DNA of 64,000 nucleotides, taken from Azolla caroliniana. Its lineage: Eukaryota; Plantae; Polypodiophyta. The position numbers and the translations under genes were made by a program. Shown piece by piece: positions 4,832 to 58,559 of this stretch (the stretch's first letter is position 1; every line of letters begins with the position of its first letter). The notes beneath the pieces are model-generated. The model was not told the DNA's origin. It saw nothing but the letters and a program-made list of their open reading frames with translations, and made no database searches. The stretch covers positions 17,360,001 to 17,424,000 of the forward strand of contig JBHGNT010000018.1 in NCBI GenBank assembly GCA_043228905.1. The letters are read 5' to 3'.

Positions 4832-4883
<52 letters not shown>

Positions 4884-24721: not shown

Positions 24722-24745
24722 CCCCCCCTTAAGCTAAATATTATT

Positions 24746-27700
24746 TTATTCAAAAGTATTGTCGTTCGACGAATAGTTTGGCATTGTTAGACCAATCTTT
24801 CGGCAACAAGCGATATGCTTTGTTTGAGGTACTGGCTTTGTTAGAAAATCGGCCCACATTAGTGTTGTGGACGCATACTTCAAATCTAGCTTCTTCTCTT
24901 CGATTAAGTCTCGTAGAAAGTGATGCTTGAAAGAGACATGTCGAATATTATCACTCATTTTTGGATTACAAGCTAACTTGATACATGATTGATTATCACA
25001 ATGAAGGATTAGCTTTGAGGTTTTAAACAAGTTAAGTTCTTCAAGTATGGAATGAATCCATATTCCTTCTTTAGCAGCGAGTGCGGCAGCTACATATTCG
25101 GCTTCCGTTGAAGATAATGCAACCGTTGTTTGCTTCTTAGACCTCCATGCTATAGCGGCTCCGGCGAGACAATATACGAAGCCACTTGTTGACTTACGAC
25201 CATCAACATCCCCCCCCCAATCCGAGTCCGTCCATCCAGATAATTGTGATGGATTGGTCCATCCTTCAAGGTTCATGTTGATGGACTCGGATTGCGATCT
25301 GGAGTAAGTTAACACCATATATTTCGTTCGTTTTAGATAACGTAGTAGTCGTTTTAATGCTTGCCAATGTTTCGGTCCGGGATCCTGCATAAATCTCGAA
25401 AGAATTCCAGCGGTGAAACATAAATCGGGACGTGTACAACTAACAAGGTAGCGTATACATCCAAGAATTTGCTTGTAAGGAACATTGAGCATCTCATCTC
25501 GCTCTTTGATAGTTCGAGGAGCATCTTCGATTGATAATTTGCATGGAGTTGACATGGGTGTCGAGATAGGCTTGCAATGTAGCATGTCAAAACGTTTTAA
25601 TACACTTTCAATGTATTGAGTTTGGGAAAGAGAAATGGTTCCTTTGGCACGATCTCTTTGTAGGTTCATTCCAAGGAAATACTTCATTGGACCAAGGTCA
25701 GTTATTGGAAAAGCTTGTTGAAGTTCCTTCTTCGCAAGTTGTAGATACGCGAGTGAGTTGGCAAGTAGAGGTAAGTCATCGACATAAACACCGATTATGA
25801 TGAAATTATTCTTAGCTCTTTTAATATATACATTTGGTTCATTCTTTAGTCGTTTATATCCATTCTTAGTTAGAAAATTATGAAGTCGATGATACCAAAC
25901 TCGTGGAGATTGTCGTAGACCGTATATAAGGATCGATGTAGGCGACATACAGCATTTGGTTGAGTTGAATCTTCAAAATGTGGTGGTTGTTGCATATAGA
26001 TCTCTTCTTCGAGTTCTCCATGAAGGAAAGCGGTTTGAACATCTAAGTGATGAAGTTCCAAATCAAGTTCGACGGCGAGAGAGACGAATATGCGAAATGT
26101 GATACTTCGCAATGTAGGGCTAAATGTATCTTTGAAGTCGATTCCAGGTATTTGCGAAAAACCACGAGCTACGAGACGAGCTTTGAAACGTATAATATTT
26201 CCAGTAGCATCGGTCTTCTTCCGAAGAACCCACTTACAACTAACAATTTGTCGATCAGGTGGTGGATCGACAAGGCTCCAAGTTTTGTTCTTTAATAAGG
26301 CTGTCATCTCTTCTTCCATGGCTGCTCTCCATTTAGGGCCATCGGTACCAGACAACGCTTCGCGAACGGTAATAATTAATTCATTTGCAGTATCTGGTTC
26401 TTCTTCAACTATGAGAGCGTCCATATCGAGGTCCACAAAGTGTGCCTCGAATTGGTCAAGTTCCTTATAGATATCGGACAAGGAGCGCGTACGACGAGGT
26501 GGTGAGTCGTTATCATATGAGTTTGGATAGTCTTGCGAGGATTGTGATTGTGAGTTAATTGAAACATCACTAGTGATGTCGGGTGAGTGAAGATGAAATG
26601 GCGGAATGATTTGAGAGGTTTGAGGGCTTTCAAGAGTATTTTGAATAGAATTCGAGAAATTAGATAAAGAGATTGGTAAAGTGGTAGATGTATGTAAGCG
26701 TGGTGAAGATAAGGTTGATGTAGAGGATGTGTTTGTGAGGTCATCATAATTTGTAGAGTTAGATGGTGTGAAAACACTATCAAGATGTGGGTTAATATAG
26801 TTAGTTTGTTTAGGTTGGGTATTTCTTTTATATTGGTTGGTTACATTTAAAGATGCATTTTTTATTTTACTTTTATTTTTATTAACTTTAAATTTAAATA
26901 TTGGCTTTTTATGTAGACGGAGTCGAACGGGAGGAGTTCTTGGAGGAGAGGAGATGGGAGGAGATGCAAGGGGTTGATGTGAAGGAGAGATTGGAGGAGG
27001 TGCAAGCGGTGGAGGTAGTGGCTGATCAACGTGAATAAGAGGGCGAGGGATTACCACATAACGATCGACAGCATCGAGGACTTAATCAAAGTGAGAGGCA
27101 ACGTTGATATTGGCGGCTTTTCTTGATCGATTGTTGGCGGCGATAGTAGCGGCATCAACATTCTTCGCTCGATGGCCAGTGGGTATTCTCTTTGAAGGGC
27201 GGCAATTATCATCATCACTGTTGTGTTGGTGGCAAAGGGCGGCATCGACGGCGGTGCTGTTTTGGAGGCGGCGGTCGGCAGCAATAAAGATGTTTTGTTG
27301 GCGGGAGGCGGCGGCGGTAGTGTTGGTTGGGAGGCGGCGGTCGTCAGAACCAGAGATGTTTTCTTGGCGGAAGGAGGCGACGGTGGCGGTGCTGTTTGGG
27401 AGGCGGCGATAGTCTGCAACCGCCATGTCCTTTTGGCGGGAGATGTCGATGGCATCGGTGGCGGCGGCGCTGTTTGGAGGGCAGCAATTATCATCAGCAA
27501 CACTGCTGTTTGGGCGACAAAACGTGGCGGCGGTGGTGGTGGCGGCGACGGCGACGGCGGTGTTTGCAGGGCGGCGAACAGTGGCAGCATCATCTTTTGA
27601 CTGTTCGGCTCCTTCACGAGTATTAATTTTAGGGTTATGCGTTGGTGTCGTGGATTCAAGAAATGGTGACTCATCAAATTTGACGGTACGACTATAAAAG

Positions 27701-30212
27701 AACGTGTTCTTGCTTGGATCGAATAAACGGTAAGCCTTGTAGCAACACTGCTGTTTGGGCGACAAAACGTGGCGGCGGTGGTGGTGGCGGCGACGGCGAC
27801 GGCGGTGTTTGCAGGGCGGCGAACAGTGGCAGCATCATCTTTTGACTGTTCGGCTCCTTCACGAGTATTAATTTTAGGGTTATGCGTTGGTGTCGTGGAT
27901 TCAAGAAATGGTGACTCATCAAATTTGACTGTACGACTATAAAAGAACGTGTTCTTGCTTGGATCGAATAAACGGTAAGCCTTGTAGCCGTTTGCATCTC
28001 CGTACCCAACAAAGATCGCTTTTCTTGCTCGTTGTTCTAACTTGGATCGTTTTTCAGCAGGGACGAAGGCGTATGCAAGGCAACCAAAAATTTTGAGATC
28101 TTGCATATTTGGTTTTACTCAAAACCATAACTCGTATGGTGTGATTAACCCAAGTGTTCGATGATAGTTGCGATTTTGGAGATAGCATGATGTTGCGACG
28201 GCTTCTTCCCAAAATGAGGGTGAAAGTGACGCTAGATTCAACATGCTCCGGGCCGAATTAAGGAGTGTTCGATTCTTGCGTTCGGCTAGACCATTTTGTT
28301 GTGGTGTTGAAGGAACAGAAATTCGTTGTAAAATTCCATGGTCTTTACAAAATTTTGTAAACTTGTTAGATGTATATTCTCCTCCCCCGTCAGATTGTAG
28401 ACATTTCAATTGTAGATTTAGTTGCTTTTCTGTTAGTGATTTGTAATTTGTAAAAGCAATGAACGCTTGGTCTTTGCTTTTGAGAAATGTTAGTATTGTA
28501 AACCTTGTATAATCATCGATGAAACTAATGAAATATTTTGATTTTAAAAGTGATTGAGTTGGGAATGGACCGCATATGTCACTATGGACGAGTTCAAGAG
28601 GTCGACTTCTTCGTGAGTTACTTGTAGGAAACTTTGATGATGCCATTTTGCCGAACAAGCATGCCTCACATAAGTCGATTTTGCAAAACATATCCTTTGG
28701 GACTCCTTGAGCGAGCTTGTGAGTTTGGAGTGTTCGCATAGCAGCAAGGTGTGGATGTCCAAGTCGGTAATGCCAAAGTAGAGTGAGTTCTTGTTGTCTT
28801 TCGATTTCGGTTGTGTGAACTTCGATTGTTGATTGGGTTGTTGGATGTACACTAATGGGATATAACCCTCCTTGTCTTTTGCAAGAAGTTCGTATTGTGA
28901 GACCATTTGGTAGAAGGTGACGAATCACGGCTTGGTTATGATGGAACTCGATGATGGTTCCATTCGAAGTTGCTTGACTTATCGAGAGAAGGTTCTTGGT
29001 GATACCAGGTACGTGGTACACATCATTGATCATGAAGTTTCCTCCTCCGGGGAGATGAAATGTAAGTTGGCCTTTGCCTAATGCTTGTTTTACTCCATTA
29101 TTTCCAAATCTAACAGTTATTGGATTTTGTAGGGGTGTGTACCTTTGAAGCCAATCCGATCGATGTGTAAGATGATTTGTTGCTCCGGTGTCGAGATACC
29201 ATTTGTCGTCCTTCTTTGTTGGTATGTCTGCGACAAGTGCTTCAGCTACGAAAGCTTGCATCAAGTCACTGTAACCTTCTTCTTCATATTCATTCTTTTC
29301 TTCCATCGAGGCGGCATAGACCTCTTCTTCTTCTTCTTCTTCTTCATTTCTCTCTTCCTCAAATTCCTCGACAATGTGCGCTTGTGGTCGGCGAATATTG
29401 CTTGGAAATCTCCGAATCTTTTGTTTTGCCTTACATTCTTGTGGTGTGTGGCCTGGCCTTTTGCAAATGTTGCAATAAGACCTAGTGAACTTCATTCCTC
29501 CTTTCGTCATCGGTGCATTAGTCCATTGACTCTTGAAACTCTTGTATCTTGGTTGTGATTTGAAATGAGGTCGATAGGCTGCCATAGCGATTGCTTGTGT
29601 TGATGTGTTTTCTTCTCTTGTCTTTCTCATCGAGTCTTCTTGCCTTATGTCTCCCATGAGATCTTCCACGGTAGCTTTTTTATTTAAATTTTGTGTAGTC
29701 ACAAAAGATGACCATGAAGAGGGTAAAGCACCTAGTAATAAACATCTTTGTAGTTTGTCAGAAATGTCCAAGCCAGATGTAATTGTATCATCCAGTTTCT
29801 TTTCCCAAGTGGTTAGAAAATTATCTACATCATCTTCTTCTTTCATTGTAAATGTGACATATGCACGTAGTGTGTGCACTTGTGCTGCATCCGTTTGTGG
29901 TTCATATTGTGTCTTTAATTTCTCCCAAATTTGATGCGAAGTTTGTAGCTTTCTGACCGCTTCTCCTTGAACATCTGATATATGTGCTAATAATTCCATT
30001 TTTGCTACAAGATCTTTCTCTTCCCAAATAACTTGATCGGGTCCGGGGGTATTAGGTTTTAGTGATGATCCTGACACTACATTCCAAAGTTTGTAGTGTT
30101 GAAATAATAATTCGAGTCGAGCACTCCAAATGCGATAATTTTGCTTTGATAACTTTACTAATGAAAGTTTATGTGTGTTGAGAATGTTGGCGGGAGATGA
30201 GGATTGTGCCAT
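24746..30212 (-). pseudogene. copia gag-pol polyprotein with disablements
   Basis: CNICKRPGH knuckle, WYLDTGATNH, HSDICG/SDGGGEY/NGLAER integrase, YVDD, RNase H. In-frame stops at 28119 and 27082, a 245-bp duplication, and a frameshift near 25925. Confidence 0.93.
27496..27985. repeat. 245-bp tandem duplication inside copia pol
   Basis: 27496-27740 is repeated at 27741-27985; the peptide YKAYRLFDPSK...FCRPNSSV occurs twice, in different frames. Confidence 0.92.
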
Positions 30213-30316
30213 TTTTATAGAAGAGGGCTATCCGGCTTAGCGCTCGTCTTGATGACAAATCGATCAATGCTCCTAGGATTCTCTAGTCTTATTTGATAGA
30301 TGCGGAAATCTATAAA

Positions 30317-30326
30317 TCTGATACCA
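30317..30326 (-). promoter_or_regulatory. Primer-binding site (tRNA-iMet type)
   Basis: TGGTATCAGA immediately inside the 5' LTR. Confidence 0.85.
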
Positions 30327-30553
30327 TGTAGAAATCGGCAACTATACAAATAGAGATTGAGAGAGAGATCACACATACACAAAATTGTTCTATATTAATT
30401 GTATATGTTACATTAGCCCAAATGGCTTCTTTGTAGAGACGATGAACAAAAAGTTATGTCTCTTCAAATGAAGAGTTTTCTCTAAAGTATAATAATAGAA
30501 ATAACTTTTCGTAATAATAAATAAATATTATATTTAGATTAAATATTTCCACA
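30327..30553 (-). repeat. 5' LTR of young copia
   Basis: Matches 24495-24721. Confidence 0.95.
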
Positions 30554-33500
30554 CCTCCAGCTCCCAGCTCAGCAGGTGAATTGGGAACTTCTGCTTTCCC
30601 ACTCTGTTAATATATTGCATGGACTCAATACCTAAATCATTTTCTAACTTATATCATGACGCTGCAGCTGGTTATACAGCGCCTCACATGAGACCGTTTT
30701 CTGACAATTATGCAGAGGAGCGGGATCTCGATGAAGATTGTGAAAGAATGGAATGGAGTTATGAATATCCTTCAGCTTGGACATCAGCAGGTGAATTACT
30801 AGCTTCTGCACATAAGTACAACCTCAATCAATATGCGCAAATGACTAAATAACCTTCCAACTTATATGTAGATCATGAAGCTGCAGCAGGTTCTACAGAT
30901 CCTCCCATCACATCATTTTCAGATATGTATGCAGAGGATCTGGAGCAGCAATTAATGCTCCTTCTTGATGAAGATCATGAAATAATCCAAGGGAGCCCTG
31001 AATATCCTCCATCAACTACATCAGCAGGTGAATTAGTAGCTTCTGCTCATAACTAAAATGTCATTATAGTGGCATCGATAAATTGACCACATAACCTTCT
31101 AACTTATACTAGATCGTAAAGCTGCAGCTGGTTTTACAGAGGCTCCCATCATACCAATTGCTGACAATTTCTTAGAAGAGCTAGGGCATGACGAGGATCG
31201 TGAAAGAATTGAATGAAATTATGAATATCCTCTAGCTCCGACATCAGCAGGTTAATTAGTACCTTCTGCGCATAAGTACAGCCTCCATCAATATGTGCAA
31301 ATGACTAAATAACCTTCTAACTATTATATAGATCATGAAGCTACAGCTGGTTCTACAGAGCCTCCCGTCACATCATTTTCAGATATGTATGCAGAGGATC
31401 TGGAGCGGCAATTATTGCTCCTACTTGATGCAGAGCATGAAATAATCGAAGGGAGTTATGAATATCCTCCGTCAACTACGGCAGCAGGTGACTTAGTAGT
31501 TTTTGCTCATAATGGCAATGTCAATATAGCGCATCAATGAATTGATTACATAACCTTCTAACTTATATTTGATCGTAAAGCTGCAGCTGGTTCTACAGAG
31601 GCTTCCATCAGACCATTTGCTGAAAATTTTGTAGAAGAGCTAGGGCATGATGAAGATCACGTAAGAATTGAATGGAATTATGAACATCCTCTAGCTCCAA
31701 CATCTGCAGGTGAATTGGTAGCTTCGCCGCATAAGCACAATATCAATCAATATGTGCAAATGACTAAATAACCTTCTAACTTATATGTAGATCGTGAAGC
31801 TGCAGCAGGTTCTACAGATCCTCCCATCACATCATTTTCAGATATGTATGCAGAGGATCTGGAGCAGCAATTAATGCTCCTTCTTGATGAAGATCATGAA
31901 ATCATCGAAGGGAGCCCTGAATATCCTCCATCAACTACATCAGCAGGTGAATTAGTAGCTTCTGCTCATAACTAAAATGTCATTATAGTGGCATTGATCA
32001 ATTGACTACATAACCGTCTAACTTATATTAGATGGTAAAGCTGCAACTGGTTCTACAGAGGCTCCAATGAATAATGCCCAGGATGATTTTATACTTGCAG
32101 AGCTGCAGCAGCAGACAAATGGCACGATCATCATTGAGGAGATGAAGGAAGAGTTGGATGCCATCCTGCTAAATGCTGAAGGTGGCTTGAAAAAGCGGCT
32201 CATAACACCAATGACCAGTACCCAATTCAAGGTTCTGGAGGCCTTCTTTAAGACGGGCCGGCCCACGTTCGTCGAATGTCCAAGTTGAATTTCGATATTT
32301 TAACAACCAAACGAAGACTCTGTTGGTTCAGCCTCGCTTCAGCTGCAAGGTGTGCTTCACACCACCCCATTCTCCAGCGAAAGACTGGAACCAGCAAAAG
32401 CAGGATGAGAAAGTGAATAAGAGGAAGAAGCTGGAGTTTACGGTTCACCAAGAGGAATTGGAAATGCTGGCTGGTGCCTGGGGACGGCTTCACGCGCTGG
32501 TGCAACGTTTCTGGTCGATGCCACATGTCATCGAAGTTCTAGAGGCCAACAAATTTATTCCGTGTAGCAGCCGCCGCTGCAAGTCTGAGAGTCCAACCAA
32601 GTCATCGCCAAAGAGGAAGAGGAGATCGTGGGAGTCGAAGCAGGTCGATGATGGTGGTACTGCTGCTGAGAAGGTGATGGATCGTCAATTGCCTCTTATG
32701 AGAGATCATCATGATGAGGATATGTTGTGGATGGAATCTTTTAATTCCATCATCGGAGCAGAGAGGCTAGGTAGTTCTGCTGCCTATACCTCCAGCAATA
32801 CTAATCCTAACAATAATGATAGTGATTGGTATTATGATTACTATATGAGTTGCAGCAATCTAAACAATAAACATTGCTGCTTTCACTTGGTAACTATCTT
32901 CTCAACTACATTAATATAATTACCAAGTTTGCTCACTAAAGGGGTTGATCTGCTAATGATGTTTGATATAGCTAAATGTTTGATGTTATATATAGTTAAG
33001 GTTTGACCTACTTAGTTCAGAATTATCAGTCAGTAATTCTTTTCTTATATTAAGTATTATTTATTTTACGGTCTTGTGTGACGCTTGCTTGCCTAGTTGA
33101 TTGTAGTAATATATATAAGATATGTTGTGTTCGTCAAGCTTCTTGTAATTTGTTCTTTCTTAATCTCATCCATTACTTCTGTTAATGTTTTTTTTCATAA
33201 CTGATTGTCAACTGGTTGGGTTTTTGTTAATTTATTAAAGAAGGTATTTCAGCTAAATATATATGTACAACGCATTCTATTTGGTCTTGCTTCTGACAAT
33301 CTTGTTCATTATAAACTTCGCACAGGGGAAACGACAGACTGAAACGTACATACATTTTAAGCTTTGAATTTTCCAATGTTTGCAGGATGCAAGGAGTGGT
33401 AGTATCTTTACTGTTGATGTACAATATGTGTGCCATGGAATTGTACAATTGCCCTGTATTGTTAAAGATATCTCCCACACTTTCATGGACATCTGGCTAC

Positions 33501-40808: not shown

Positions 40809-42760
40809 CAAAGAAGTAGACAATGTCACTGTATTATTCTTAAAGTTACTACAAAATGATGGCACTCACATCATCATCATGACGTGAGGAATGTGTTTCT
40901 TTTGTTTGTTGGAATTGGAACATAGTATGTGTTTCCTTTGTTCCATTTGAATTGGTGTGTAGGGTGGGATTGAGATTGTAGGGTGCCATTGGAGGCCAAT
41001 TGCGATGGGCCAAGGACAAGGAGTGTCGACAAAATGTTGAAGGTGCTCAACTGTTCCCCTAGATGAAGGAAAGGGTTGATGTGGCCTTCTAATGGTAAAA
41101 GGAAAATCAACACATGTGGTGGCTGTAGAAGTTGTCGGGGTGGAGTAAACGAGACCCCTTCCATTGTTGATCTTTTGTCTTGCTTAGTGTCTACTTATAC
41201 AAGCCAAGGGCTCTTTCACTATGTCACCTATGGTGGGTTTTTATTCAATCTCCATCCCAAGTTTCTACGAGGAAATGGACAAGAGGAGGTAAGAATACAC
41301 ACATCTTTATCATTCCTTTTGCCTTGTGGTGGGTGGTCGGTCCATCAAGTTTGTCAAGGATTCGTTACGAATGGCAATCTTTGAAGAATGATGCATTTCA
41401 TACTAACGATTTCCCAATAGACTTTGTCATATTTCGCTACCGTGCATACATTAAGAGTGTTCCATAATATTTAGCTCCCGAGAAGGGTTCTATACTTTGT
41501 AGGTAGTAGTGGTGGTGTTTTTTTTCTTTCATAATAGAAGCCAAATCTATACTTTAGAGTAAGTTAGTTACGGAAAGGGGGAGAGAGAAATGGAGGGGTT
41601 TTTTCTTTCATTAATACTTTAGGTTCATGCTTCTAAGTTCTTCTCCAGCTGCTTATTCTTCTTCTTCTTCTTCTTCTTCTTCACCTCTCTCTGACGAAAC
41701 CCTACAGAAACCCTACAAGGCTACCTGTAATTTGTCGAAACTGCCTCCTCTAAACCTAATCCTAAACTTAGAAAGCAGAATTCGACGCATCACAGCAGAC
41801 ACTCACTCATGCTACCGTTGCAGCAGATGGAACGACTTGCTACATGCAGCACAAGATGTCTCTGCTTTCGTAGGATACATGTCCGAAATGATGGGAGTCC
41901 AGCTAGAATCGATGGCGACACTGTTCAGGAAGATGGTAACGAAGCAGACGCCGTAAGGAAAGATTCATCAGGAGAAGCCTTTCTCATTGAACCTTCGATG
42001 TCTTTTGTTTCTCCCTTCTTTTCAGGTCCCTGTGAATCACTCATCTTCCTATAACTTGGCATTTTTTCGATTGGATCAGAAACTATGAGTTACACAAATT
42101 CTCCTTTTCCCTCCCTTCGTTATCTGTACAGATAGAAAGAGAACGAGAGGGGAATATCCGTTTGTGTTTTGCCACAAGTTGAAAAATTGAGTTTGGGAAA
42201 TATCTTCATATTCAGGTGATATTTTTTTTTGGATTTTTGGACAAAAGGTCATTCCGATTTATCCATTCAGAGACATTTTAGGGATTTCCATTTTGCTTTC
42301 ATTGATTTTCGGATGAAATTTCTTTGGAAAAATCTATTTGATTCTTTCCTCATCCTTTTTTGTGGAGTTTTGGATGACGCATAAAAGGTAGGTTTTGTTT
42401 TTCATTGACGATTGAGGAAACTTGTTGGAGATAATTAATTATTATTTTTCTTTGGTTAATGTTCATGCCATGCTCTCAATCAACATTTGGACCAGCCATC
42501 CCTTTGAATTGTATTGTGGAACTCCATTTTTCTTTCATATGAAAAACTAGAGAAATTCCTGTGGGAAAAATCTCTTTTGACTTGTTTTTGAGTGTTCATG
42601 CATGCCATTATGTTTATGGAAGTTCATCCTTTCGAGACATCCAAATGGAAAGGATTCTCGTTTTACTATTCATTGTAAATTGGGATATTAGTGTGGGTCT
42701 TCCTTTTCTGAATAATACATGGATTTTTGAAGTAGTATTGAATGCCAAGAATAGTATGTG
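38800..42760 (+). repeat. Tandem duplication: 38800-40415 matches 40415-42760 minus ~41308-42018
   Basis: Near-identical ORFs 39242/40877, 39441/41076 and 40215/42561. Confidence 0.88.
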
Positions 42761-43184
42761 TTATGCCTTGTGTTTTTCGTGGTTTGTATAGACCAAGAAG
42801 TTTGATATCCAAAAGGCAACAAGAAAACATTTTCTTTTTGTCTAGCATTTCTGGAGTTGAGGTAGCTTTTGTTGCTACTCCAGAAGTTTTCAGATTATTT
42901 CACCATATCGTTTATGCGTCCAATCTGTTGAACATGGAAAACCACAAGCTGCTGCTTTTGTGCTCAAAGGATTGCAAGTTCCTGGCCTGAGAGAGAGAGC
43001 GAAGGAGTCAATTGCATGTCTATATTTTATTAATGGGTTAAAGGTAGGTTATTGACCACGTTTTTGGACTTTGCTAATTTCATCTAAATGTAATTTGCAG
43101 ATAAAGTGTGCTCCCGTGAATGGTTGTCATATTTGTGGTAATATGTTCCTATATGAGTGTTGCCAAATACAAAGACATATGAGT

Positions 43185-43950
43185 GTTGCTGGTTCCGCTC
43201 TTTCAGCGGAGAATTGAGTGGCATAAAGCACACTTTACAACCGAAGCAAGGCTGAACCACAACTGAGTCTTTGTTTTGTCGTTAAAATACAGGAACTCTA
43301 CATTGACATTAGAAGCGCAGAGAGGGCATGGTGGAAATGTCCAAAGGCCTATCTTGAAGGTATCCAGAACCTTGAATTGGGTACTGGTCATTGGTGTGGT
43401 CAGCCTCTTTTTTAACCCGCCTTCAGCATTTAGGAGGATCGCATCCAACTTTGCCTTTATCACCTCAATGATCGTCGTGCCATTTGTCTGCTGTTGCAGC
43501 TCTTGTAGAACCTTGAAGGCAGCGTTGGATGCGATCCTCTTAAATGCTGAAGGCGGGTTAAAAAAGAGGCAGAGCACAGCAATGACGACTATCCAATTCA
43601 AGGCTCTAGACACCTTCTTCAAGATGGGCCTTCCGACATCACTACCATGCCCTCTCTACGCATCTAATGTCAATGTAGAATTCCAATAAGTGTCAGTTGG
43701 TTCAGCCCCACTTTGGGTTGCACAGTGTGTTTATGCCACTCCATTATCTGCAGAAAGAGTGGAATTAGCAACAGCAGGAGGAGCATGTGAATAAGATGAA
43801 GAAGCTGGAGTTTACACTTCATGGAAAGGGATTGGAAGTGCTGGCTGGTGCCTATAGGAGCCTCAGTGTGGCTGCAACGTTTCTGGTCAATGCCACGAGT
43901 CATTGAAGTTCTGGAGGCGAACAGATTTATTCTGTGCAGCAGCTGTTGCA
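43185..43950 (+). pseudogene. Copy D: inverted duplication of the Dof-like exon (fold-back, arms 43185-43458 and 43514-43772)
   Basis: The same peptide LDAILLNAEGGLKKR...CPL(C/Y)ASNVNVEF is encoded on both strands; both arms are disabled. Confidence 0.88.
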
Positions 43951-46283
43951 TGTCAGCAAGAAGAAGACCACATTGCTCTAATTAAAATTACAGTGATTAG
44001 GGTTATCAGTACTCTTCAAAGAAAAAATCTTGTAACTCAGATTGCCAGTTATGGAGTTATTATTATTATTATCATTATAGGTTTCTTGGATCACACACAG
44101 TGGTGACGTGACCATTGTGAGTCCTCTCAGATATGATAGAGCTCTCCTCGGATCAAGAAAGATGGATTGTAGAACCAAATGAAGATGGGCAACAACTCAT
44201 TCATGGATACGTAATGGTGGACATGGAAGTGAAATGTCACTGTAAACCAATATATCCATAATCCAAGCATTCATGGTTAGTTCCACAAATGGCATATGTA
44301 ACAAGTGCGGTTGGAATCATTCACTATTTTAAAGACTAGATGTTAGATTTTCCTTCAGCCTTTCAATTATAAGTCACAATATCATATTTTTGTGACAGCT
44401 TCAAAACTAGGTACTAGGTTTTAGTAGTAGAGCATATGTTATTGTTTAAACCCCTCTCAAGGGGTGGTAGAAATAAAGGACCTTTGACCTCTCCCACATG
44501 AACTTGAATCCATAATAGCATTGCACACAATTTGTGCAAGTTTGGGTTCCCAAAAATTGTTAGTTCCCTATTGGGTAACGAGGTAAATGATGGATGGCAT
44601 AATAGTACCTCAAAGCACATCCCCTCCATAGAGTGTGGTCAACACCAGCCATATCAAGGAAAACATAGTTTTGTTCGTAGGACATCAAACGAAGGATATA
44701 GGCATGTTGTCCCTAGTTCTGAAGCATATGAATGAATGTTGTGGAGGTGAATACTTTGTTGTTGGTTGACAAGTAGAAGAGAAGCAATAATCGGTTGGCC
44801 TCTCTTTGGGCATGACACAACATTTGAAGCTTTGCACTAGGGATGAAAGCACAACGCCGAACCTATAGGTGCATGGTCCTAAGCATAGGTTTGAGATAGT
44901 ACTAATCTTCGCCTCGCACTTTGTGAACTTTTTCTCTTGTTTACTTCGCTTCCTCCTAAAACTTGCCCATGAGCTAAAGTGGGAAGGATAAATTTACGTT
45001 TTTGGCAATAGCTCCCTCCCACTCACCAACATACTTAACTTATCCTTTTGGAAAAGAACATCAAGTTAGGGTCTCATGAGTTGAAGTGGTGCATAATATT
45101 TGGTTGGACATGGTCCATACTCTATTGGTTTATTACTCAATGTGTCCACTTTTTGACTTTCTTGGAAAATACTCTACTTTTGTCTTGAAAAGCTGGTCTC
45201 CCTTTTTCACATTTTTAGTTGCCAAGATGGTTGTACGCTTCGTGATAACCCATATGCATACGTCCACATCCACATCCATATCCACACACACACACACACA
45301 TCCACATACTAATACTCATGCACATACACATACGTCTATACACACATACACACACATATAACATAGAAATACACAATTAATTATACATGCTCATTCACAA
45401 GTATACATGAGGGTAGACATACTTCTATATAAATGTATCCACACATACTCCCTAACACACTAAAAAATACAATTACACTAATAGACACATTTTTATGCAA
45501 ACATATATATTGTGGTGTACGTTTTGAGCAAGCGCATGCCGTCATGTTGTGGTGTACCTTTGTTCCTTTGTGCCACCCGTTTAGCATGCATGTAGCCAAA
45601 CCAACCCAAATGGGTATCAACTTATCAACTATAAATTGAGTAAGAAGTAAGAAGCAAGGCAAGCTTGTTTGGATTCTCTCTATGTGCTTTTCACAATATG
45701 CACTTGTATGTGTAAATACAAAATTTATTCATTACATGCACATATTCACTACATAGCATTGAAACCTAGTTAGTACACCATACAAGCTCACATGGCTCAC
45801 ATATAATCTAATGCACATATATTATCGATCTGAACCGCATTATTGGTGAAGGCACAAGCTACAAATGAATCTCTCAAACACGATGAAAGCACCTAGACAT
45901 GCATCACATCACTTAAAAAAGGAGAGAGGTCATCAAATAAACCAACAAGTCTGGACATGTGGGCACGTTGGATTGCATTAGGTTGCATATTCCACGACAT
46001 AGAATAGTTTTATCAACAATAACATTTGATCAATCAAAGTGTAGACTACACAATAATAGTGCAAGTCCATGAGTTTGTATATTTGGCTACCGGATAATAG
46101 GATTGACAATGAAGATAGGATAGAAGGACCATATAATTGTTGCATAAACCAACTTCCATCACTTCATGGATATTGATAGGCCCAAGAAACCCATCCCACT
46201 CCATGGTCACGATGAATAAATGCATAGTGTAAGTGACATATTGTATCTAGGATGAAGATTTTAAAGGAAGATTGGATCAATGT

Positions 46284-50498: not shown

Positions 50499-52135
50499 AA
50501 TGCAATAAATCAATATGCTAACATGATTCCACTCCTCCTCATTGATAGCCCGATGTGATCTAACCATCTCTCAAAACAAACTTGGAGAATGACACAATGT
50601 GTGAATTTACTAGTATGTTAGGCCATGGCCATATTCCCATCCATGGACATTCCTTTATGTCCGTGAATGAAACTCGCGGCATGTGGGCATCAACCCATGC
50701 ATGACCATCGTGTTTATGCTAGCTAATGCATGGCCATGATATCTCATGCATGGCATGGAATCCCATCAACCCACGCATGACCATCATGTTCCATGCATGC
50801 GTGACCATGATATCTCATGCATGCCATGTAATCCCATCATCTCATCTCTAGTTAATATGTAATTACACAAACAAAACACAATTCATAATTTGATTCCACT
50901 TCATTTATTTATTCATTTAATGACTTGAACGTACGAAAAGCCTGCGCAAGAAGAAGAAGAAGAAGCTCATCATCTTCTTTCTGCTTCTCCCATTTAGAAA
51001 CAGCTTTTCTCCATCTCCATCTCCATCTCTGGCTGGTTTCACATACATATATTATCACAGTCATCTTGTCATGAATATCTTTTCAGTCTCAAGCATTGAT
51101 TGCTTCCACTCTCAAGCATAAAAAATGTGTACATGAGCCATGACACACATAAAAACAAGCTTGCCTTCACCACTTGACTTACGCCTGCAGAGAACGTCTT
51201 CAGTCTAAATGCTAGTATTACCCCCTTCCTAAAACAAAGCATTGCCAAGGCACATGATGGCTTCCGTTGAGAAGAAAGCCACAATCACATTCCCATCAAC
51301 GAAGCCCAAGAATGCACAGAAATCAAATCTATATAATGCTTTTGCTGATATCAAATCGAATGCTGTAGGTAAATCGGGGTGATTTATCGTTCATTGGATA
51401 ATGTAGGCGGGATGGTTTACACTTTGATGGTACAATGAATGGACAAAAACTCAGTTTTTGCGTTTATAAAGCTTTTTGTCAAGTGGCATGTGTATGATAT
51501 GGTATGCACTATTTCAGGTGGTATGAGTATTGATCAACTCAATGTAATAATATGCTTGTTTGTTAGCTACTTTAGTAATTAGGCTTCTAAACACACAATG
51601 CAAGGGAAACCCCAACAAAAACCCTAAATTCTTGGTCTGTCTTGTTTTCTCTCATTGAACCATTGATGTTTTTGTGAATCCTTTCTCTTTTCAGGTTCCT
51701 TTGCTGTACTCATCTTCTTACAACATCGCTTTCCTTGGCTTGGATCAAAATCTGTAAGTTAAAAATAAATTCTACTTTCCTCTCTCTAGTCTTTCTGTCT
51801 CGGTAAAAAGTTGGAGATAGTGTAGAGAGATTTGAAGAAAAGAAGTAAACAGGGAAAGAAAGAGAATGAGACGGCCACTTGTCCTAATTCTCATTTAATC
51901 ATGTTTTTGTCAATGTTGGTGCCATGCTTCCATTGACATTTGGATCATTCCCCCCCCCCCTTTGAATCGTATTATGGAACTCCAATTTTTCTCCCATATC
52001 AAAAACTAGGGAAATTTTTGCGGGGAAATATCTCTTTTGGCTTGTTTCTTAGTGTCATGCCATTCTGTTTATGGATCTGATTTCTTGCGAGGAAACAGAT
52101 GCCAGAAGGATAAGCATATTGTGGAACCTAATTAC

Positions 52136-53792
52136 TGTTGCCACGGAAGATGATTTCCTTGAGGTACCATCTTATGTATCACCTCCACTATTTAGTGTCC
52201 CATAAATTAAGATGTTAGGAGGATCTCTATTAATCACTAACACAATGATTGTATTCAATTCTATAGAATGCTCAAACCATTATAGCCATTCCACACTATA
52301 TGATAAAGTGGCATGTCTCTACCGTTTTAGCATGGAGAGGCTCGTCGCTAAAGGAATTGGCAAGGTTCCTGAGGTTAAACAGCTCGACATGGACAAGGCA
52401 AAGCTAATGTATGTGCTACTTTTCTGATTAAAATGGGGATTTTTGAAGTTCCATCAAAGGCAAACATTATATGTTACCTGGCATTTGTAGAACTAAGCAT
52501 GAATGCTTGGATTAAGGATATATTGGCGAATGATCGAAGGGAGAGAGTCTGTGTCATATCTGTGAGGACTTACAATGGTGACTTCACCACTGAGTGTGTG
52601 ATCCAAGAAACCTATAATGATAATAATAGTAATAACTCCACAACTGGCAATCTGCGTTATATGATTTTTTCTTGTGGAGTACCGAAAACCCTAATAACTA
52701 TAATTATAATCAGAGCAATGTGACCTTCTTCTTGTTGAAAGTGTTCTCTGATCTGCACTTGGTCATTCTAGGTAAGAAGAAGACAAAGCAATGAACGTAT
52801 GATTCGAGTTGAATCGATATTGGCGTACATTGTAAAAAGGCATGATCCACTAAATTCGCTTCATTTGATTTCATTTCTTTAAACACATCGGAAGTACTCA
52901 GGAACCTGTTTTGCATAACTAGAAAAGAATGGCACAGAACAACATCTCCTCGGCTTTTGCATCAACAGCTTTACAAAGCCATTCAATCTTTGTAGCAGTG
53001 TCTCCAACCCTTGCACATGAGATAAGGAAATGAATGTGAAGAAGAGCAGCAAATTACAAGAACAAGAATCCCCACCCTTTGAGGTGAAGAATGCATATGA
53101 TCACCAGAAGTCGAGACAGTTGATTCGATGCGACTGTACCGCTCTGAGCTGAAAGTTAGGGTTTTCCGAGTTCAAATTGATTTAAATGCAACCAAAGAAT
53201 AATGGCATTAGAGCAATAACAGTGTTGATCCTTTAATGATTACAGTACTAGTCATTCGTGTTTCAAAAATGAAATACACAAAGCACACAAAATGATGACT
53301 TGAAATCATCCTGAAAGGTATGGATTTTTTAGTAACAACATATATCAGAAGCCATATGAGCTACCTCTAGTTCATAAATGTTACACAGAAAGAGCATGTT
53401 TTCTTGTGGTCTACTGGATATCAAAGTTCGTGGTTCATAGAAACCAGCAAGTTATAAAACCTACCATTGTTCATGGAACTTCAAAAATCCACCTTCTGTT
53501 CAGAAAAATAAGACACATACAATGACCTTCCGTTGTCCATGTAAAGGTGCCTAACGTCAGAAACCTTGCGTATTCCTGTAGCCACAAGACTGTCCATGCT
53601 AAGATACTAGGAACATGCCATTTTACCATATAACGTGGAAGGGATTCTATGGGATTCAATAGAATCATTGGTTTCATTTAGATAATTTGTTAATTACATC
53701 AAGATTTGGAGAGATCCTCCTAACAGCTTATAAAGACACTAAACTGCAGGTTATAAGGTGATACTACAAGGAGATCATTTTCCGTGGCAACA
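52136..53792. repeat. Diverged inverted repeat upstream of copy C (arms ~52136-52400 and ~53545-53792)
   Basis: TGTTGCCACGGAAGATGATTTCCTTG has its reverse complement at ~53767-53792, with further collinear matches. Confidence 0.7.
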
Positions 53793-54856
53793 TCAGGCTC
53801 ATCAGAAACTCAGGGAAATGTGTCCTGGCATCCTTATATGTCTTCATTCTTCCTAGAACGTTCAGCAGATCTGAAGTGTGTCCTTTCTGCATAACATTTA
53901 TGAAAAACGAGTGACTATGATTGTAAACGTCAATGTTAATACGTAACTCAAATGACTATCTTCTTTGTTGCATTTAAAATCTGTCCTACTCAGAAAACCC
54001 TAACCTTCAAGCATTTGTACGCAATGAGAGAGAGAGAGAGAGAGAGAGCCATGGTGTAAATCACATGTCTATATTTCGTTAAGGATTTAGAAGGAGGTTA
54101 TTGACCATCTCTGCTGGTAATACTTGGGTACATTCTGTTTGTCCTCCTGTTTGGTTTAGGTTGTGAGATCATGTCTTTACCGTATGTCTATTGAATATGT
54201 CTATTGCGTGAAACCCCTTTAATAATTGATGGAAAAGAGTGACCTGACTGTTTGAATGATTAGTGAAATAGAACAATATTAGAATCTACATCAAGCGATG
54301 ATTAATTGATTAAATGTGGATGATTAGGGGTTTTGACAAGTTCTGGTATTTGTAAATGTGGATGAATGAGATGTAAGAAAACGAGAAAGAGAATGTTCTA
54401 CTAAAAAAAAGAGAAAAAAAATGGAAAATAAGAAAACGAGTGCATCCCAGCCGTTGATAAAACAAAACATTTCTAGAAAAATAAAAGGACGGCATCCAGC
54501 CCATCGGAGCCGTGCGCCGTCGGATGGACGTCAGGATCCGACAACCCACGATTGCGTACACAAAACGCGAAACTGTCTTCTGCCCTTTTTCCGACAGAAG
54601 AACAGTAGAGACAAAGCATTTCGAACACACACAGAAAGAGAAAGAAGAGAGCCTTTGAACACCATCGCCACCCCTTCATCGAGACGGCCTGAACAGCAGT
54701 TGCCTTGCAGAGTAAGGAGGAACCCACATTCTAAATATATGGAAATGACAAAATTACCTGCAGAATCGTATCAGACTTGTCAATCGTATACTAGTTAGTA
54801 GGGTAGGACATTACCTGCAGAATCGTATCTGATCAATTGTCGATCGTTCTAATAGG

Positions 54857-57039
54857 ATGGCTCCTGCTGGCGTAGACAGAGATACCCAAATCATTCCTAA
54901 TGATGAATTCGCAGGATTACTATTACATGAGACGGAAGTGGAAGACTTCCAACAGTTGGTGCTTCAATTGCTCCACCAAACAGAAGATGATGAATCAATC
55001 AGGGTTGACTCCTTGGAACTTCCCGTCACATCAACGTCCCACGACAATGTGGACATATATGCAGATGAGCTGGAGCAATTCCTGCTCCTGCACCAGGAAA
55101 ATCAAGAGATACCTGAAGCTCTGACATCCGCAGGTCCATTAGGAGCTTCCAATATCAATAAATGTGTGCGAATAAAAATAGTAAACATGTTTCTGAAATG
55201 TTTATGCACGATACAGCTGCAGCGGGTTCCACAGAATCTCCCGTCACATCTGTCTGCATAATTGAAGACAGTCGTGAAGATCCACCAGCTCTGAGATCAG
55301 CAGGTGAATTAGGAAACTCCTGCTTTCCCATTCTGTTAATATATGCAGAGACCCAATACCTAAATCATTTTCTAACTTATATCATGACGTTGCAGCTGGG
55401 CAAATCAATATGGGCAAATGACTAAATCATTTTCTAACTTGTATATAGATTATGAAGCTGGAGCTGGTTCTACAGGGCCTCCTATCACATCAATTTCAGA
55501 TATGTATGCAGGGGATCTGGAGGAGCAATTATTACGCCTTCTTGAGGAAGACCAAGAAATAATCGAAGGGATTCCTGAATATCCTTCCCCAGCGACATCA
55601 GCAGGTGAATTAATAGCTTCTGCTCATAACTGCAATGTCAATATAATGCATCGATAAATTGAGTACATAACTTTCTAACTTATATTAGATCGTAAAGCTG
55701 CAGCTGGTTCTATAGAGGCTCCCATCAGACCATTTGCTGACAATTATGTAGAGGAGGTAGGGCTTAATGAAGATCATGAAAGAATTGAATGGAATTTTGA
55801 ATATCCTCCAGCTCAGACATCAGAAGGTGAATTTGTAGTTTCTGGGCATAAGTACAATCTCAGTCAATATGGGCAAATGACTAAATAATCTTCTAACTAT
55901 TATATAGATCATGATGCTGCAGTTGGTTCTACAGAGCCACCCATCACATCATTTTCGGATATATATGCAGAGGATCTGGAGCAGCAATTACTGCTCCTAC
56001 TTGATGAAGACCATGAAATAATGGAAAGGGGTCCGGAATATCCTCAGGCAGTAGCGACATCAGCAGGTGAATTAGTAGCTTCTGCTCATAACTACAATGT
56101 GAATAGGGAGTGCATTGGTAAATTGACTCCATAACCTTCTAACTTATAATAGATCGTAACGCTGCAGTTGGTTCTACAAAAGCTCCCATGAATAATGCTC
56201 AAGATGATTTTCTACTTGAAGAGCTGCAGCAGCAGACAAATGGCACAACCATGATTGAGGTGATGAAGGCAGAGTTGGCTGCGATCCTGCTAAATGCCGA
56301 AGGCGGGTTGAAGAAGAGGCTGAGCGCACCAATGACGACTACCCAATTCAAGGTGTTGGACGCCTTTTTCAAGATTGGTCTGCCTACATTACCATTATGC
56401 CCTCATTGCAAGACGAATGTCCACGTAGAATTCCGATATTTTAACAACCGAACGAAGACTCGGTTGGTTCAGCCTCGCTTCGGCTGCAAGGTGTGCTTTG
56501 CACCACCCCATTCTCCGGAGAAAGAATGGAACCAGCAAAAGCAGGAGGAGAATGTGAATAATAGGAAGAAGCTCGAGTTTACTCTTCACCAAGAGGAATT
56601 GGAAGTGCTGGTTGGTGCCTGGGGAGGGCTTCACGCGCTGGTGCAACGTTTCTGGTCGATGCCACATGTCATCGAAGTTCTGGAGGCCAACAAATTTATT
56701 CTGTGTAGCAGCCGCCGCCGCAAGTCTGAGAGTCCAACCAATTCATCGCCAAAGAGGAAGAGGAGATCGTGGGAGTCGAAGCAGGTCAATGATGGTGGTA
56801 GTACTGCTGAGAACATGATTGATCATCAGATGCCTCCTATTAGAGATCATCATGATGAGGATATGTTGTGGATGGAATCTTTTAATTCCATCATCGCAGC
56901 AGAGAGGCTAGGTAGTAGTTCTGCTGCCTATAGCCCTAGAAATACTAATCCTAACAATAATGATAGTGATTGGTATCATGATTACTATATGAGTTGCAGC
57001 AACCTGAACAATAACAACATTGCTGCTTTCACTTGGTAA
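54857..57039 (+). CDS. Repeat-exon Dof-like zinc-finger gene, copy C (intact, ~567 aa)
   Basis: Exons 54857-55133, 55217-55303, 55449-55604, 55689-55826, 55908-56066, 56153-57039 join into 1704 nt with no internal stop. C-x2-C-x25-C-x2-C finger at 56398-56496; basic SPKRKRR motif. Confidence 0.85.
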
Positions 57040-58559
57040 CTATCTTCTCAACTACATTAATATAATTACCAAGTTTGCTCACAAAGGGGTTGATCTGCTG
57101 ATGATGTTTGATATCGTTAAATGTTTGATGTTATATATAGATAAAGGTTTGACCTGCTTACTTTTACAATGATCAGTCATTAATTCTTTTCTTATATTTA
57201 TTTTACGGCTACTTGATTGCAGTACATATATACATGATATGATGTGTTCCTTGCAATTCTTTGTTTCTTAATCGCATCCATTACTTCTGTTAAACTCTTC
57301 TTTTCATAACTGATTATCAACTGCATCTTCTTCTTCCAGAAATACGGGTTAGGTTTTTGTTAATTCATTAAAGAAGGCATTTCAGCTAAATATATATGTA
57401 TAACACATTCTATTTGCTCTTGCTCCTGGAAATCTTCAGTTCAGTATAACCCCCCCACAGGTCAAACGACAGACTGAAATGTACAATAATTTTAAACTTT
57501 GAAATTTTCAATGCTTGCAGGAGGATGCAAGGTGTGGTAATGTCTTTACTGTTGATATACAATATGGTAGCCATGGAATTATACAATTACCCTGTATTGT
57601 TAAAGATACAATATGGTAACCTTGCAGTCATAGCATCTGGTGACTCTGGAATATGGAACCACCTCATAACATCTAGCCGTGATTGTTTCACATCCAATAT
57701 GTCTGTTCAAGCTGCAAATACCATACCGCGTATAGTATCCAATATGCTCTGTGTTGTATCTTGAACTTCGCAACCACCATCATATAATTGAGGGAGAGTG
57801 GCTGAGCAAATCCATGAGTCCTGCAGAGATCATGGATGGGGTTGCTGGCCGTGTCAACCATGCCATCTCTACACTTGAAATGCTGATGTTGATTCTTATT
57901 ATTTCAACATCTGGACCAAGCCAGGTGGTGCCCATACAGTATGTGGCTCAAAAGTCTGCCTGATATCATTTCCTTTGCAATGCAGACAGAGCTCACAAGA
58001 ATAGGTCTGTCATAGAAAGAAGAGAAGTGGAGCCACATGAGGAGAAGAAGTAGTAACAGCAGAAGTAGGGGAAAGAAAGAAAAAGTATGCAGGAAAGAAA
58101 GAAGAAGTATGCAAGATTTGGACTGATGATGATGATGATGATGATGGTATGAAATCTGCAGCTGTTTTGATCTGGGGCAGCTCCAACAAGAACCATAGAA
58201 TCCTTCCTTGCTGTTGTGACCTGTGTAGCAACTCCAGCTGAGAATAATTAATTCTAACTGTAAATAAATTAGTTATATGGGCAGCAAGAAGGAGGTGCTG
58301 ATTGCAGCAAGAAGCAATGTATATGATTTTGGAAATCGTAATTTTTAGATTTTCCCTAAGATGGTCTTGTTTTGCTGAAGCCCAAATATCATGGAAGGAT
58401 ATGTATACATATTTGCATGACTCCCTAGAATAAAGTAGGACATTTGGCCTTAGGATTGATGCAACCAGGGACGTGTTCTCAGAAGATATAGCTCCAACAA
58501 TCATTTGTGATCACGTCCATTATGACCGCAAGACATGTAGAATTTGCATTTTATCTTAT

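What the first reader, a model, noticed from the sequence alone, without database searches (positions are those of the whole stretch)
43185..43772. Fold-back of the zinc-finger exon inside its own gene cluster: candidate hairpin-RNA / proto-MIRNA regulator
Seen: arms of ~270 bp (43185-43458 antisense, 43514-43772 sense) with a ~55-nt loop. The inner stem 43403-43449 / 43524-43570 pairs over 47 bp with a single G:U. It lies directly downstream of a copy of the family's upstream block (~41940-43160). On a plus-strand transcript the left arm is antisense to the A/B/C mRNAs (the AILLNAEGGLKKR region), with several mismatches. Known: inverted duplication of target genes is an established origin of plant MIRNA/hpRNA loci. 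Inference: the cluster may encode its own silencer.
Basis: partly seen in the sequence, partly recalled or inferred. Interest (0 to 1): 0.8.

Follow-up and report, generated by a model that had tools for sequence, protein, structure and literature searches.

The report
Spliced hairpin RNA from Dof-like gene
In a plant, likely a fern, a broken copy of a zinc-finger regulator gene carries an old fold-back that public sequencing contigs show spliced as RNA and that is predicted to form a 270-base-pair hairpin, which would likely be cut into small RNAs able to damp its sister genes: a new example of a known route to gene silencers, with the small RNAs still untested.

Summary
The fold-back is real: arms 43185-43459 / 43514-43772, 216 of 255 aligned bases complementary, fold z = -29. 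An independent DNA contig (L003) and contigs of runs X1 and X4 cross the loop, so it is no assembly artefact. New here: X1 and X4 join 42215 to 43101 over an 885-nt GT..AG intron, so the locus is likely a spliced plus-strand RNA. It is a gutted copy of a Dof-like zinc-finger family whose named relatives are fern proteins. The arms are sisters and about as old as the B/C split. The 47-bp stem is not special: p = 0.065 against scattered mismatches, no G:U bias, and it is the most variable, CpG-decayed part among haplotypes. The best match to family mRNAs lies at 43363-43397. Small RNAs could not be tested. Best reading: an endogenous inverted-repeat hairpin RNA, likely diced into mixed siRNAs, drifting almost neutrally; a precise MIRNA is possible but unsupported. 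The family has two more fold-backs. Known kind (endoIR / proto-MIRNA), new member. The scan had not noted it on other DNA.

The parts
41979..43155 (+). Family 5' block (5' exon pieces and first intron) kept by the hairpin locus D
   Evidence: 65-77% matches to the 5' regions of A (4309-3526), B (14479-15903), C (51650-54107) and loci L004/L005/L008
42026..42131 (+). Small GT..AG intron (106 nt), weakly supported
   Evidence: one X4 contig, 27 letters on the short side; ends read
42132..42215 (+). Non-coding exon upstream of the hairpin
   Evidence: X4 record 16, 0 other letters over 42129-42212; an almost identical copy lies in 39669-40416
42216..43100 (+). 885-nt GT..AG intron, removed in contigs of X1 and X4
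   Evidence: joint 42212->43098, GT..AG (cut +3), sides 32 and 84 letters; CAG|GTGATA ... TTTGCAG|
43151..43189 (+). 13-bp direct repeat (43151-43163, 43177-43189) at the entry into the left arm; its last 5 bases are the first of the arm (junction microhomology)
   Evidence: sequence
43185..43459 (-). Left arm: antisense copy of the zinc-finger exon (C 56539-56264)
   Evidence: frameshifting 2-nt insertion and 3-nt deletion against the genes
43363..43397 (+). Best predicted guide region: 35 nt exactly complementary to B, 29 nt to the L002/L004/L005/L006/L008 copies
   Evidence: position 43387 differs in X1, X2, X4
43403..43570 (+). 47-bp inner stem (43403-43449 / 43524-43570) with the loop; variable among haplotypes
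43460..43513 (-). Unpaired loop = further antisense exon sequence (C 56263-56210)
   Evidence: blastn 43186-43510 to 56538-56210; crossed by L003 and by X1, X4 contigs
43514..43772 (+). Right arm: sense copy of the same exon piece, 17-nt deletion and stop before the second Cys pair
43773..43943 (+). Unpaired sense continuation of the exon (to C 56712), frameshifted
43953..44303 (+). 3' tail, 87% like C intron 52738-52472 in reverse; covered to 44218 by an X4 contig
1..4943 (-). Family copy A (last exon cut by the window start), inverted near-twin of C
   Evidence: 92-99% blocks with C
14479..33470 (+). Family copy B, broken by a LINE (about 17600-21300), a recent Copia (24495-30558, LTRs 99.6% alike) and a 20-nt deletion in the zinc finger
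51156..57608 (+). Family copy C: predicted repeated 138/159-nt phase-1 exons and an intact last exon (ORF to 57039) with C-x2-C-x25-C-x2-C Dof-like finger
   Evidence: exon model is predicted, not shown

Best explanation
Locus D is a gutted copy of a Dof-like zinc-finger gene that kept its 5' exons and intron and holds an old fold-back of the last exon; contigs show it spliced on the plus strand, the RNA is predicted to fold into a 270-bp imperfect hairpin, and it is likely cut by Dicer-like enzymes into a mixed set of siRNAs that likely methylate the locus itself and would weakly silence sister genes. Shown: the inverted repeat, its descent from one family copy, the GT..AG joint into the left arm, contigs across the loop, loss of coding capacity, CpG-rich variation in the inner stem. 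Inferred: origin by replication template switching (asymmetric arms, microhomology and a 13-bp repeat at the junction); one continuous transcript through both arms; folding in vivo; dicing; self-methylation; action in trans. The locus appears to drift almost neutrally, so it is best seen as an endoIR / proto-MIRNA stage rather than a finished MIRNA.
For: Fold z = -29. Arms are sisters: 13 sites group L+R against B+C, 2 and 0 the other ways; support 0.96-0.99. Splice joint over 42216-43100 in 2 of 4 laid runs (X1, X4; two study codes, both 2017, possibly one campaign); X1 record 5 carries the joint and runs to 43272, inside the arm; X1 (43364-43630) and X4 (43182-43695) cross the loop; X2 covers 43108-43444. 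Longest ORFs of the predicted spliced RNA are 73, 54 and 36 codons, behind 6 upstream ATGs for the longest. L-R differences fall 9/17/13 on codon positions 1/2/3, against 6/10/22 for B-C. 46-71 of 309 possible 21-mers score 3 or better against each of 7 family copies scored; exact 21-mers: 15 for B, 9 each for L002/L004/L006, 3 for L009, 0 for A and C (expected by descent, no shuffle control). X4 differs from the window at 9 of 260 bases in the inner stem region against 4 of 769 elsewhere (Fisher p = 0.001, region chosen after seeing the data); 5 of the 9 are CpG transitions; CpG o/e 0.49 and 0.43 in the arms against 0.87 (C) and 0.65 (B). Long imperfect transcribed inverted repeats are DCL2/3/4 substrates (PMC10827316, passages); DCL1, 3, 4 are present in the ferns surveyed (PMC5569507, passages).
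Against: No small-RNA data were reachable. Library type of X1-X4 is not on record; only the splice joint argues for RNA, and no single contig spans joint and both arms. One X1 contig lies in the intron (42893-43062). The longest perfect helices outside the inner stem are only 14-20 bp, and in the expressed haplotype the 47-bp helix breaks into 20 and 16 bp, which may make a poor siRNA substrate. No G:U bias for the plus strand (10 against 11; minus strand folds at -365.0), so no sign of selection on the RNA structure. CpG decay also fits ordinary methylation of a pseudogene among transposons. LIRBase notes that a long inverted repeat need not yield hairpin RNA or siRNAs (PMC8728187, passages). 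A and C match the arm at only about 80%, with no exact 21-mer.
Confidence: 0.55

Rival explanations
1. Inert transcribed pseudogene: the fold-back is a scar of an unstable gene cluster, still read from the inherited promoter, giving few or no small RNAs and no effect on paralogues.
For: No compensatory or G:U signal; variants among haplotypes break pairs (energy -341.2 with the X4 letters against -365.7); two further fold-backs in the family (C intron, L007/L009) show that such inversions arise often here; L- and R-specific changes are balanced overall, 15 against 21, p = 0.41.
Against: Splice sites and transcript have been kept while the arms diverged by about 0.18 substitutions per site, far more than the 0.5% between haplotypes outside the stem; variation is concentrated in the stem, as if it were singled out for methylation.
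Confidence: 0.27
2. A true, lineage-specific MIRNA: DCL1 releases one dominant 21-nt guide from the left arm, most plausibly 43363-43383 (5' U; duplex with 43590-43610 has two mismatches and one G:U), which slices most family members in the PMTSTQFKVL codons.
For: That 21-mer scores 0 against B and L009, 1 against A, L002, L004, L006 and 3 against C; it is unchanged in L003 and in X2 and X4, and in X1 from 43364; the left arm has no private change over 88 columns (43363-43450) where the right arm has 9 (gap p = 0.022, run p = 0.051, both post hoc).
Against: Precursor of 588 nt, MFEI -1.35, against means of 213 nt / -1.21 for species-specific and 155 nt / -0.96 for conserved Arabidopsis MIRNAs (bioRxiv 10.1101/2024.05.03.592357, passages). 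Three left-arm changes in the expressed haplotype fall inside the 88-column stretch (43387, 43418, 43419). Other cold-spot tests are not significant (p = 0.07-0.35). No Rfam match; the sequence is in no paper searched. Third codon positions of the target site are not spared between paralogues.
Confidence: 0.12
3. The RNA acts through a short peptide (73 codons, 43468-43686, the helix-rich stretch before the zinc finger, without a complete finger), a microProtein-like competitor of the family.
For: The ORF exists in the predicted spliced RNA and its sequence is the same in 5 database gene calls apart from a one-codon deletion in 2.
Against: It starts inside the loop behind 6 upstream ATGs and a very stable stem; right-arm private changes fall 4/10/4 on codon positions, the opposite of coding constraint.
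Confidence: 0.03
4. Assembly artefact or chimeric read.
For: Palindromes are a known artefact class (own knowledge).
Against: Arms differ at 39 of 255 columns with indels; independent DNA contig L003 is 98.8% identical over 40703-46370 including the loop; X1 and X4 contigs cross the loop.
Confidence: 0.01

Closest known systems
Endogenous inverted-repeat (endoIR) siRNA loci, e.g. Arabidopsis IR71 (PMC10827316, passages)
   Same: Non-coding, spliced (so likely Pol II) transcript with a long imperfect fold-back.
   Different: 270-bp stem rather than about 3 kb; clear parent gene family in the same cluster; siRNAs not shown here.
MIRNA birth by inverted duplication of the target gene (Allen et al. 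2004, seen only as cited in PMC5026261 and bioRxiv 10.1101/2024.05.03.592357); NBS-LRR-derived MIR472/825/1885/6025/1510/2089/5163/9863 and exon-covering inverted repeats in NBS-LRR clusters (PMC5026261, passages)
   Same: Both arms keep extended similarity to an expanded, clustered gene family; left arm antisense to a conserved coding stretch.
   Different: Parent family is a divergent Dof-like zinc finger in a likely fern; no mature miRNA known; arms already 15% diverged without shortening.
Arabidopsis PAI1-PAI4 tail-to-tail repeat and maize Mu killer (PMC3431836, passages)
   Same: Inverted duplication of a family member that can act on homologues in trans; the L007/L009 tail-to-tail pair resembles PAI1-PAI4 directly.
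   Different: Mu killer is a perfect 2.4-kb hairpin against a transposon and PAI1-PAI4 holds whole genes; here a short, old, mismatched exon piece, 76-82% like its possible targets.
Soybean CHS1-CHS3 repeat; Drosophila simulans hairpin RNAs against Dox/MDox (PMC8728187, passages)
   Same: Hairpin derived from the family it would silence.
   Different: Function shown there, untested here.
Dof transcription factors (Pfam PF02701)
   Same: C2-C2 finger with the F-R-Y-F-N-N...Q-P-R motif; matches profile positions 5/6-34.
   Different: Spacing C-x2-C-x25-C-x2-C (canonical x21, recalled); the C-terminal 25 profile positions are not matched; 3 of 9 proteins scanned pass the cut-off.

Membership tests
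endoIR / hairpin-RNA locus | Long genomic inverted repeat predicted to fold as one strand | tested here: met
endoIR / hairpin-RNA locus | Transcribed through both arms | tested here: inconclusive
   Splice joint into the left arm and contigs across the loop in X1, X4; no single contig through all, library type not on record
endoIR / hairpin-RNA locus | Non-coding | tested here: met
   ORFs of 73 codons or less, frameshifts in both arms, no third-position bias
endoIR / hairpin-RNA locus | Population of 21-24-nt siRNAs from both arms, RDR-independent | not testable with these tools
   only assembled contigs were served
MIRNA born by inverted duplication | Both arms similar to a protein-coding family beyond the mature sequence | tested here: met
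   74-82% to A, B, C and eight loci
MIRNA born by inverted duplication | One precisely excised miRNA/miRNA* duplex dominating the reads (criteria of Axtell and Meyers 2018, recalled; paper not held) | not testable with these tools
   no small-RNA reads
MIRNA born by inverted duplication | Short precursor (about 300 nt or less, recalled criterion) | tested here: not met
   whole fold-back is 588 nt; a sub-hairpin from 43363 to 43610 would be 248 nt
MIRNA born by inverted duplication | Duplex region conserved more than the rest of the precursor | tested here: inconclusive
   47-bp stem: not met (most variable part). 43363-43383: unchanged where covered, but too short to tell; left-arm cold stretch p = 0.02-0.05 post hoc
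MIRNA born by inverted duplication | Target cleavage opposite guide positions 10-11 | not testable with these tools
   no degradome data
Known MIRNA families (Rfam 15) | Match at gathering score | tested here: not met
   0 matches in the window
Dof family (for the parent genes) | PF02701 at or above 26.6 bits | tested here: inconclusive
   C 24.1 bits; P0007 29.2, P0078 26.9, P0073 27.4 pass; 5 others 22.8-25.6; P0006 no match
Dof family (for the parent genes) | C-x2-C-x21-C-x2-C spacing (recalled) | tested here: not met
   x25 in C and in 7 of 8 aligned proteins, x15 in P0006
Dof family (for the parent genes) | Binds AAAG DNA (recalled) | not tested
   no assay

The most novel reading that the evidence does not exclude
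The locus is a working, selectively kept family-wide silencer (guides from 43363-43397), and a fast-expanding fern-lineage Dof-like gene family has repeatedly bred its own silencers by fold-back: hairpin D, the tail-to-tail pair L007/L009 and the intronic repeat in C. That would be a plant transcription-factor counterpart of the Drosophila hairpin-RNA versus Dox arms race, caught at three stages in one family outside the seed plants.
Probability: 0.12. Interest if true: 0.7.

Novelty: new member of a known kind. Interest (0 to 1): 0.38.

Why it matters
The inverted-duplication route to plant MIRNAs is documented mostly in seed plants and mostly for defence genes. This is a dated, spliced, polymorphic intermediate in a likely fern, sitting among its parent genes, with haplotypes that differ in stem quality. 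One small-RNA library plus a methylome would place it on the siRNA-to-miRNA path and test whether such hairpins restrain an expanding transcription-factor family. It also points to an undescribed-looking Dof-like clade with repeated exons. The mechanism itself would not surprise a specialist.

Tried and rejected
Laying X1-X4 on 46000-58600 at 90% likeness gave no contig that fits C's last exon closely (the pieces at 56642-56712 are the hairpin locus's own contigs) and no cover in 46000-48946 (7 of 30 bins); lack of cover proves nothing about expression of C, and more distant paralogues would fall under the cut-off. The intron bins 42474-42875 and 44350-45000 also had no cover. Rfam: 0 matches. 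Longer homologues: none among 1828 candidates. Atlas: no usable hit for P0001. A Copia ORF search gave no named plant source. G:U strand bias: none. The 47-bp stem as a conserved duplex: rejected. RNA editing as the cause of the X1/X2/X4 differences: rejected, as changes at 43387 and 43418 also appear in gene calls P0088 and P0068/84/85 from assemblies. A MITE or terminal-repeat origin: rejected, both arms are host exon sequence. Trans-methylation footprint in L002-type copies: none seen (2 CpG changes in 275 columns against 3 in 310). Nucleotide-level constraint on the target site between paralogues: none. IQ-TREE gave no output; polarity was done by majority of four outgroups instead (3 of 39 sites ambiguous, dropped). 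Literature: the candidate 21-mer is in 0 papers; searches (listings) showed no description of this locus; the Azolla small-RNA paper PMC8386757 (passages; supplements 1 part 1 and a search, 3 part 1, 4 part 1; supplement 2 not read) lists no Dof target and its novel miRNAs were not found as text; the genus of the window is not established, so this is no test. bioRxiv supplements are closed and figures are not held.

Full report
Observation. The arms 43185-43459 and 43514-43772 are complementary at 216 of 255 aligned columns, with 39 mismatches and 25 gap columns. The plus strand folds at -365.7 kcal/mol, z = -29.35, with 0 of 100 shuffles as stable. The inner helix 43403-43449 / 43524-43570 has 47 uninterrupted pairs. 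Only three local inverted repeats with arms of 40 nt or more were found in the window: this one and two in C's intron. It is no artefact: DNA contig L003 matches 40703-46370 at 98.8% through the loop, and contigs of X1 and X4 cross the loop.

Anatomy. The window holds four copies of one gene family: A (minus strand, cut at base 1), B (broken by a LINE, a recent Copia and a 20-nt deletion in the finger), C (last exon intact) and the hairpin locus D. D keeps the 5' block (41979-43155), lacks the middle repeat exons, and then reads: antisense exon piece (C 56538-56210), sense piece (C 56264-56712), and a tail like C's intron in reverse. The loop is thus the unpaired end of the antisense piece. 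A 13-bp direct repeat and 5 bases of microhomology mark the entry into the left arm; with the asymmetric arms this suggests template switching during replication or repair (inference). The encoded domain is Dof-like: PF02701 at E 4e-5, just under the cut-off, spacing C-x2-C-x25-C-x2-C. A profile search of 1.84 billion representatives gave 19 hits; of the 10 looked up, the 4 with an organism name are Ceratopteris richardii (3) and Adiantum nelumboides (1) hypothetical proteins, at E 5e-7 to 5e-4. The plant is therefore likely a fern; an earlier scan note on this genome says the same (e1-10617911). The genus is not established.

Age and descent. The arms are sisters: 13 sites join L and R against B and C, 2 and 0 the other ways, in 235 columns; tree support 0.96-0.99, arm branches 0.079 and 0.097. 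L-R identity (84.7%) equals B-C identity (85.2%) over the same stretch, while haplotypes differ by about 0.5% outside the stem (32 substitutions over about 5,640 bases for L003; 4 of 769 for X4). The fold-back is old. L-R differences show no third-position excess (9/17/13 against 6/10/22 for B-C), and both arms are frameshifted, so they diverged as non-coding DNA.

Transcription. Four runs were laid, all as contigs, library type not on record. X1 and X4 (2 of 4; two study codes, both 2017, possibly one campaign) join across 42216-43100, a GT..AG intron on the plus strand with a pyrimidine-rich acceptor; X4 also skips 42026-42131 (27 letters on the short side). X1 record 5 holds the joint and runs 88 bases into the left arm; X2 covers 43108-43444; X1 covers 43364-43630 and 43613-43809; X4 covers 43182-43695 and 43872-44218. 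This is good evidence for a spliced plus-strand RNA and fair evidence that it passes through both arms; no single contig shows the whole, and one X1 contig lies in the intron. The predicted spliced RNA has ORFs of 73, 54 and 36 codons only.

Is the stem under selection? Mostly not. Mismatches that give G:U on the plus strand number 10, those that give it on the minus strand 11. A 47-column window with one mismatch arises in 6.5% of 20,000 random placements. X1, X2 and X4 share a haplotype that differs from the window at 9 places in 43362-43612; with these the 47-bp helix splits into 20 and 16 bp and the energy rises to -341.2. Nine database gene calls over the locus (two identical to the window, one on a contig of L003's length, so not all independent) add inferred changes near 43412, 43421 and 43426. 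That fits methylation of the stem, a possible footprint of siRNAs, but it also fits ordinary pseudogene methylation. One hint runs the other way: against four outgroups the left (guide) arm has no private change over 88 columns while the right arm has 9 (p = 0.022 and 0.051, post hoc; overall 15 against 21, p = 0.41), though three left-arm changes of the expressed haplotype fall inside that stretch.

Targets. Of 309 21-mers from 43185-43513, 46-71 score 3 or better against each of the seven copies scored; 43363-43397 is exactly complementary to B (35 nt) and to five L002-type copies (29 nt), while A and C share at most 16-17 nt. This is expected from descent and shows potential, not action. 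The 21-mer 43363-43383 starts with U, forms a duplex with two mismatches and one G:U, scores 0-3 against all seven and is unchanged where L003, X1, X2 and X4 cover it; it is the best MIRNA candidate, but 21 unchanged bases are not significant at this variant density, and target third positions are not spared between paralogues. It matches no Rfam family and no paper searched.

Mechanism. Most likely (0.55): the inherited promoter and intron give a spliced non-coding RNA; it folds; DCL3/DCL4-type enzymes, with DCL1 help, cut mixed 21- and 24-nt siRNAs; these methylate the locus and weakly silence paralogues. Shown are the repeat, its origin, the splice joint and non-coding drift; folding in vivo, dicing, methylation and trans action are inferred from how endoIRs behave (PMC10827316, passages) and from DCL1/3/4 being present in ferns while DCL2 was found in only three early-branching ones (PMC5569507, passages). 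Rivals: inert transcribed relic (0.27), precise MIRNA (0.12), short peptide (0.03), artefact (0.01).

Context. The family is prone to fold-backs. L007 and L009 together show two whole copies tail to tail (93.7% alike), and C's intron holds an inverted insert. This lowers the case for D as a purpose-kept silencer, since such scars are frequent here, and at the same time gives the bold reading: repeated self-silencers in one expanding family (0.12).

Comparison and novelty. It works like an endoIR and like the intermediates of the inverted-duplication model; exon-covering inverted repeats in NBS-LRR clusters and MIRNAs derived from them are described (PMC5026261, passages), as are PAI1-PAI4 and Mu killer (PMC3431836, passages), soybean CHS and the D. 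simulans hairpins (PMC8728187, passages). At 588 nt and MFEI -1.35 it is longer and more stable than even young Arabidopsis MIRNAs (bioRxiv 10.1101/2024.05.03.592357, passages). Membership as an siRNA or miRNA locus cannot be granted without reads. I found no description of this locus or of a small RNA against this Dof-like clade in eight searches (listings), in PMC13161181 (passages) or in PMC8386757 (passages and parts of three supplements); subscription papers, figures and bioRxiv supplements were out of reach. Verdict: real, likely expressed, a new member of a known kind; interest 0.38.

Noticed in passing
L009 2286-2733 and L007 1-354: A second fold-back in the family: read together, the two contigs give two whole gene copies (93.7% alike over 2177 columns) tail to tail around a spacer of about 60 nt; both share in-frame stops and a 30-nt zinc-finger deletion. 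PAI1-PAI4-like layout; join inferred from a 401-nt overlap at 98.5% between different assemblies.
   Followed up: partly
window 52472-53800: C's first intron holds an inverted 1.3-kb insert from another family-like locus, absent from A and L005/L008, making intronic inverted repeats 52136-52457 / 53470-53792 (71%) and 53150-53289 / 53877-54009 (71%); it includes a reversed copy of D's 3' tail (87%).
   Followed up: partly
L002, L004, L005, L006, L008, first 266 ORF columns: Five copies are invariant over the 266 columns that match the loop-proximal hairpin, against 24 variable sites in the next 595 (p = 0.003, post hoc). Recent gene conversion is the simple reading; unexplained.
   Followed up: partly
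window 54857-57039 (also 300-1800 and 30554-32070): Family genes are built from tandem exon-intron modules (about 230 nt; predicted 138- and 159-nt phase-1 exons with acidic sequence) ahead of a Dof-like last exon; nearest named relatives are Ceratopteris and Adiantum hypothetical proteins at E about 1e-6.
   Followed up: partly
L001 1-4251: Looks chimeric: 98% like A over its first 354 bases, 96% like B overall, without B's 20-nt deletion; suggests conversion or unequal recombination in the cluster.
   Followed up: no
window 39669-40416 / 42017-42762 and 38795-39673 / 40407-41308: Recent local duplications (98.8% and 94.6%) that copy part of D's 5' exon and intron just upstream.
   Followed up: no
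window 41705-41772, 41870-41978, 42330-42416: Contigs in X1, X2, X4 about 90% alike, one with a different joint, point to another expressed locus that shares D's 5' region.
   Followed up: no
window 43615-43617: Gene calls P0084 and P0085 lack one Phe codon in the right arm, matching the 3-nt gap of the left arm: arm-to-arm conversion or slippage.
   Followed up: no
window 5935-11872 / 58553-64000: Direct duplication (88-98%) of a Copia-derived block next to A and C, although A and C face opposite ways.
   Followed up: no
window 24495-30558; 27496-27988; 36376-37190: Very recent Copia (LTRs 99.6% alike) with an internal 245-bp tandem duplication; a separate 204-bp tandem array of four near-identical units.
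   Followed up: no
window 47761-48189: ORF fragment with a methyltransferase-like motif (VLDLFSGTG; label recalled, not searched), probably transposon cargo.
   Followed up: no
window 43984-44023: X3 contig lacks these 40 bases (5-letter microhomology, not a GT..AG joint): a deletion allele of D's tail.
   Followed up: no
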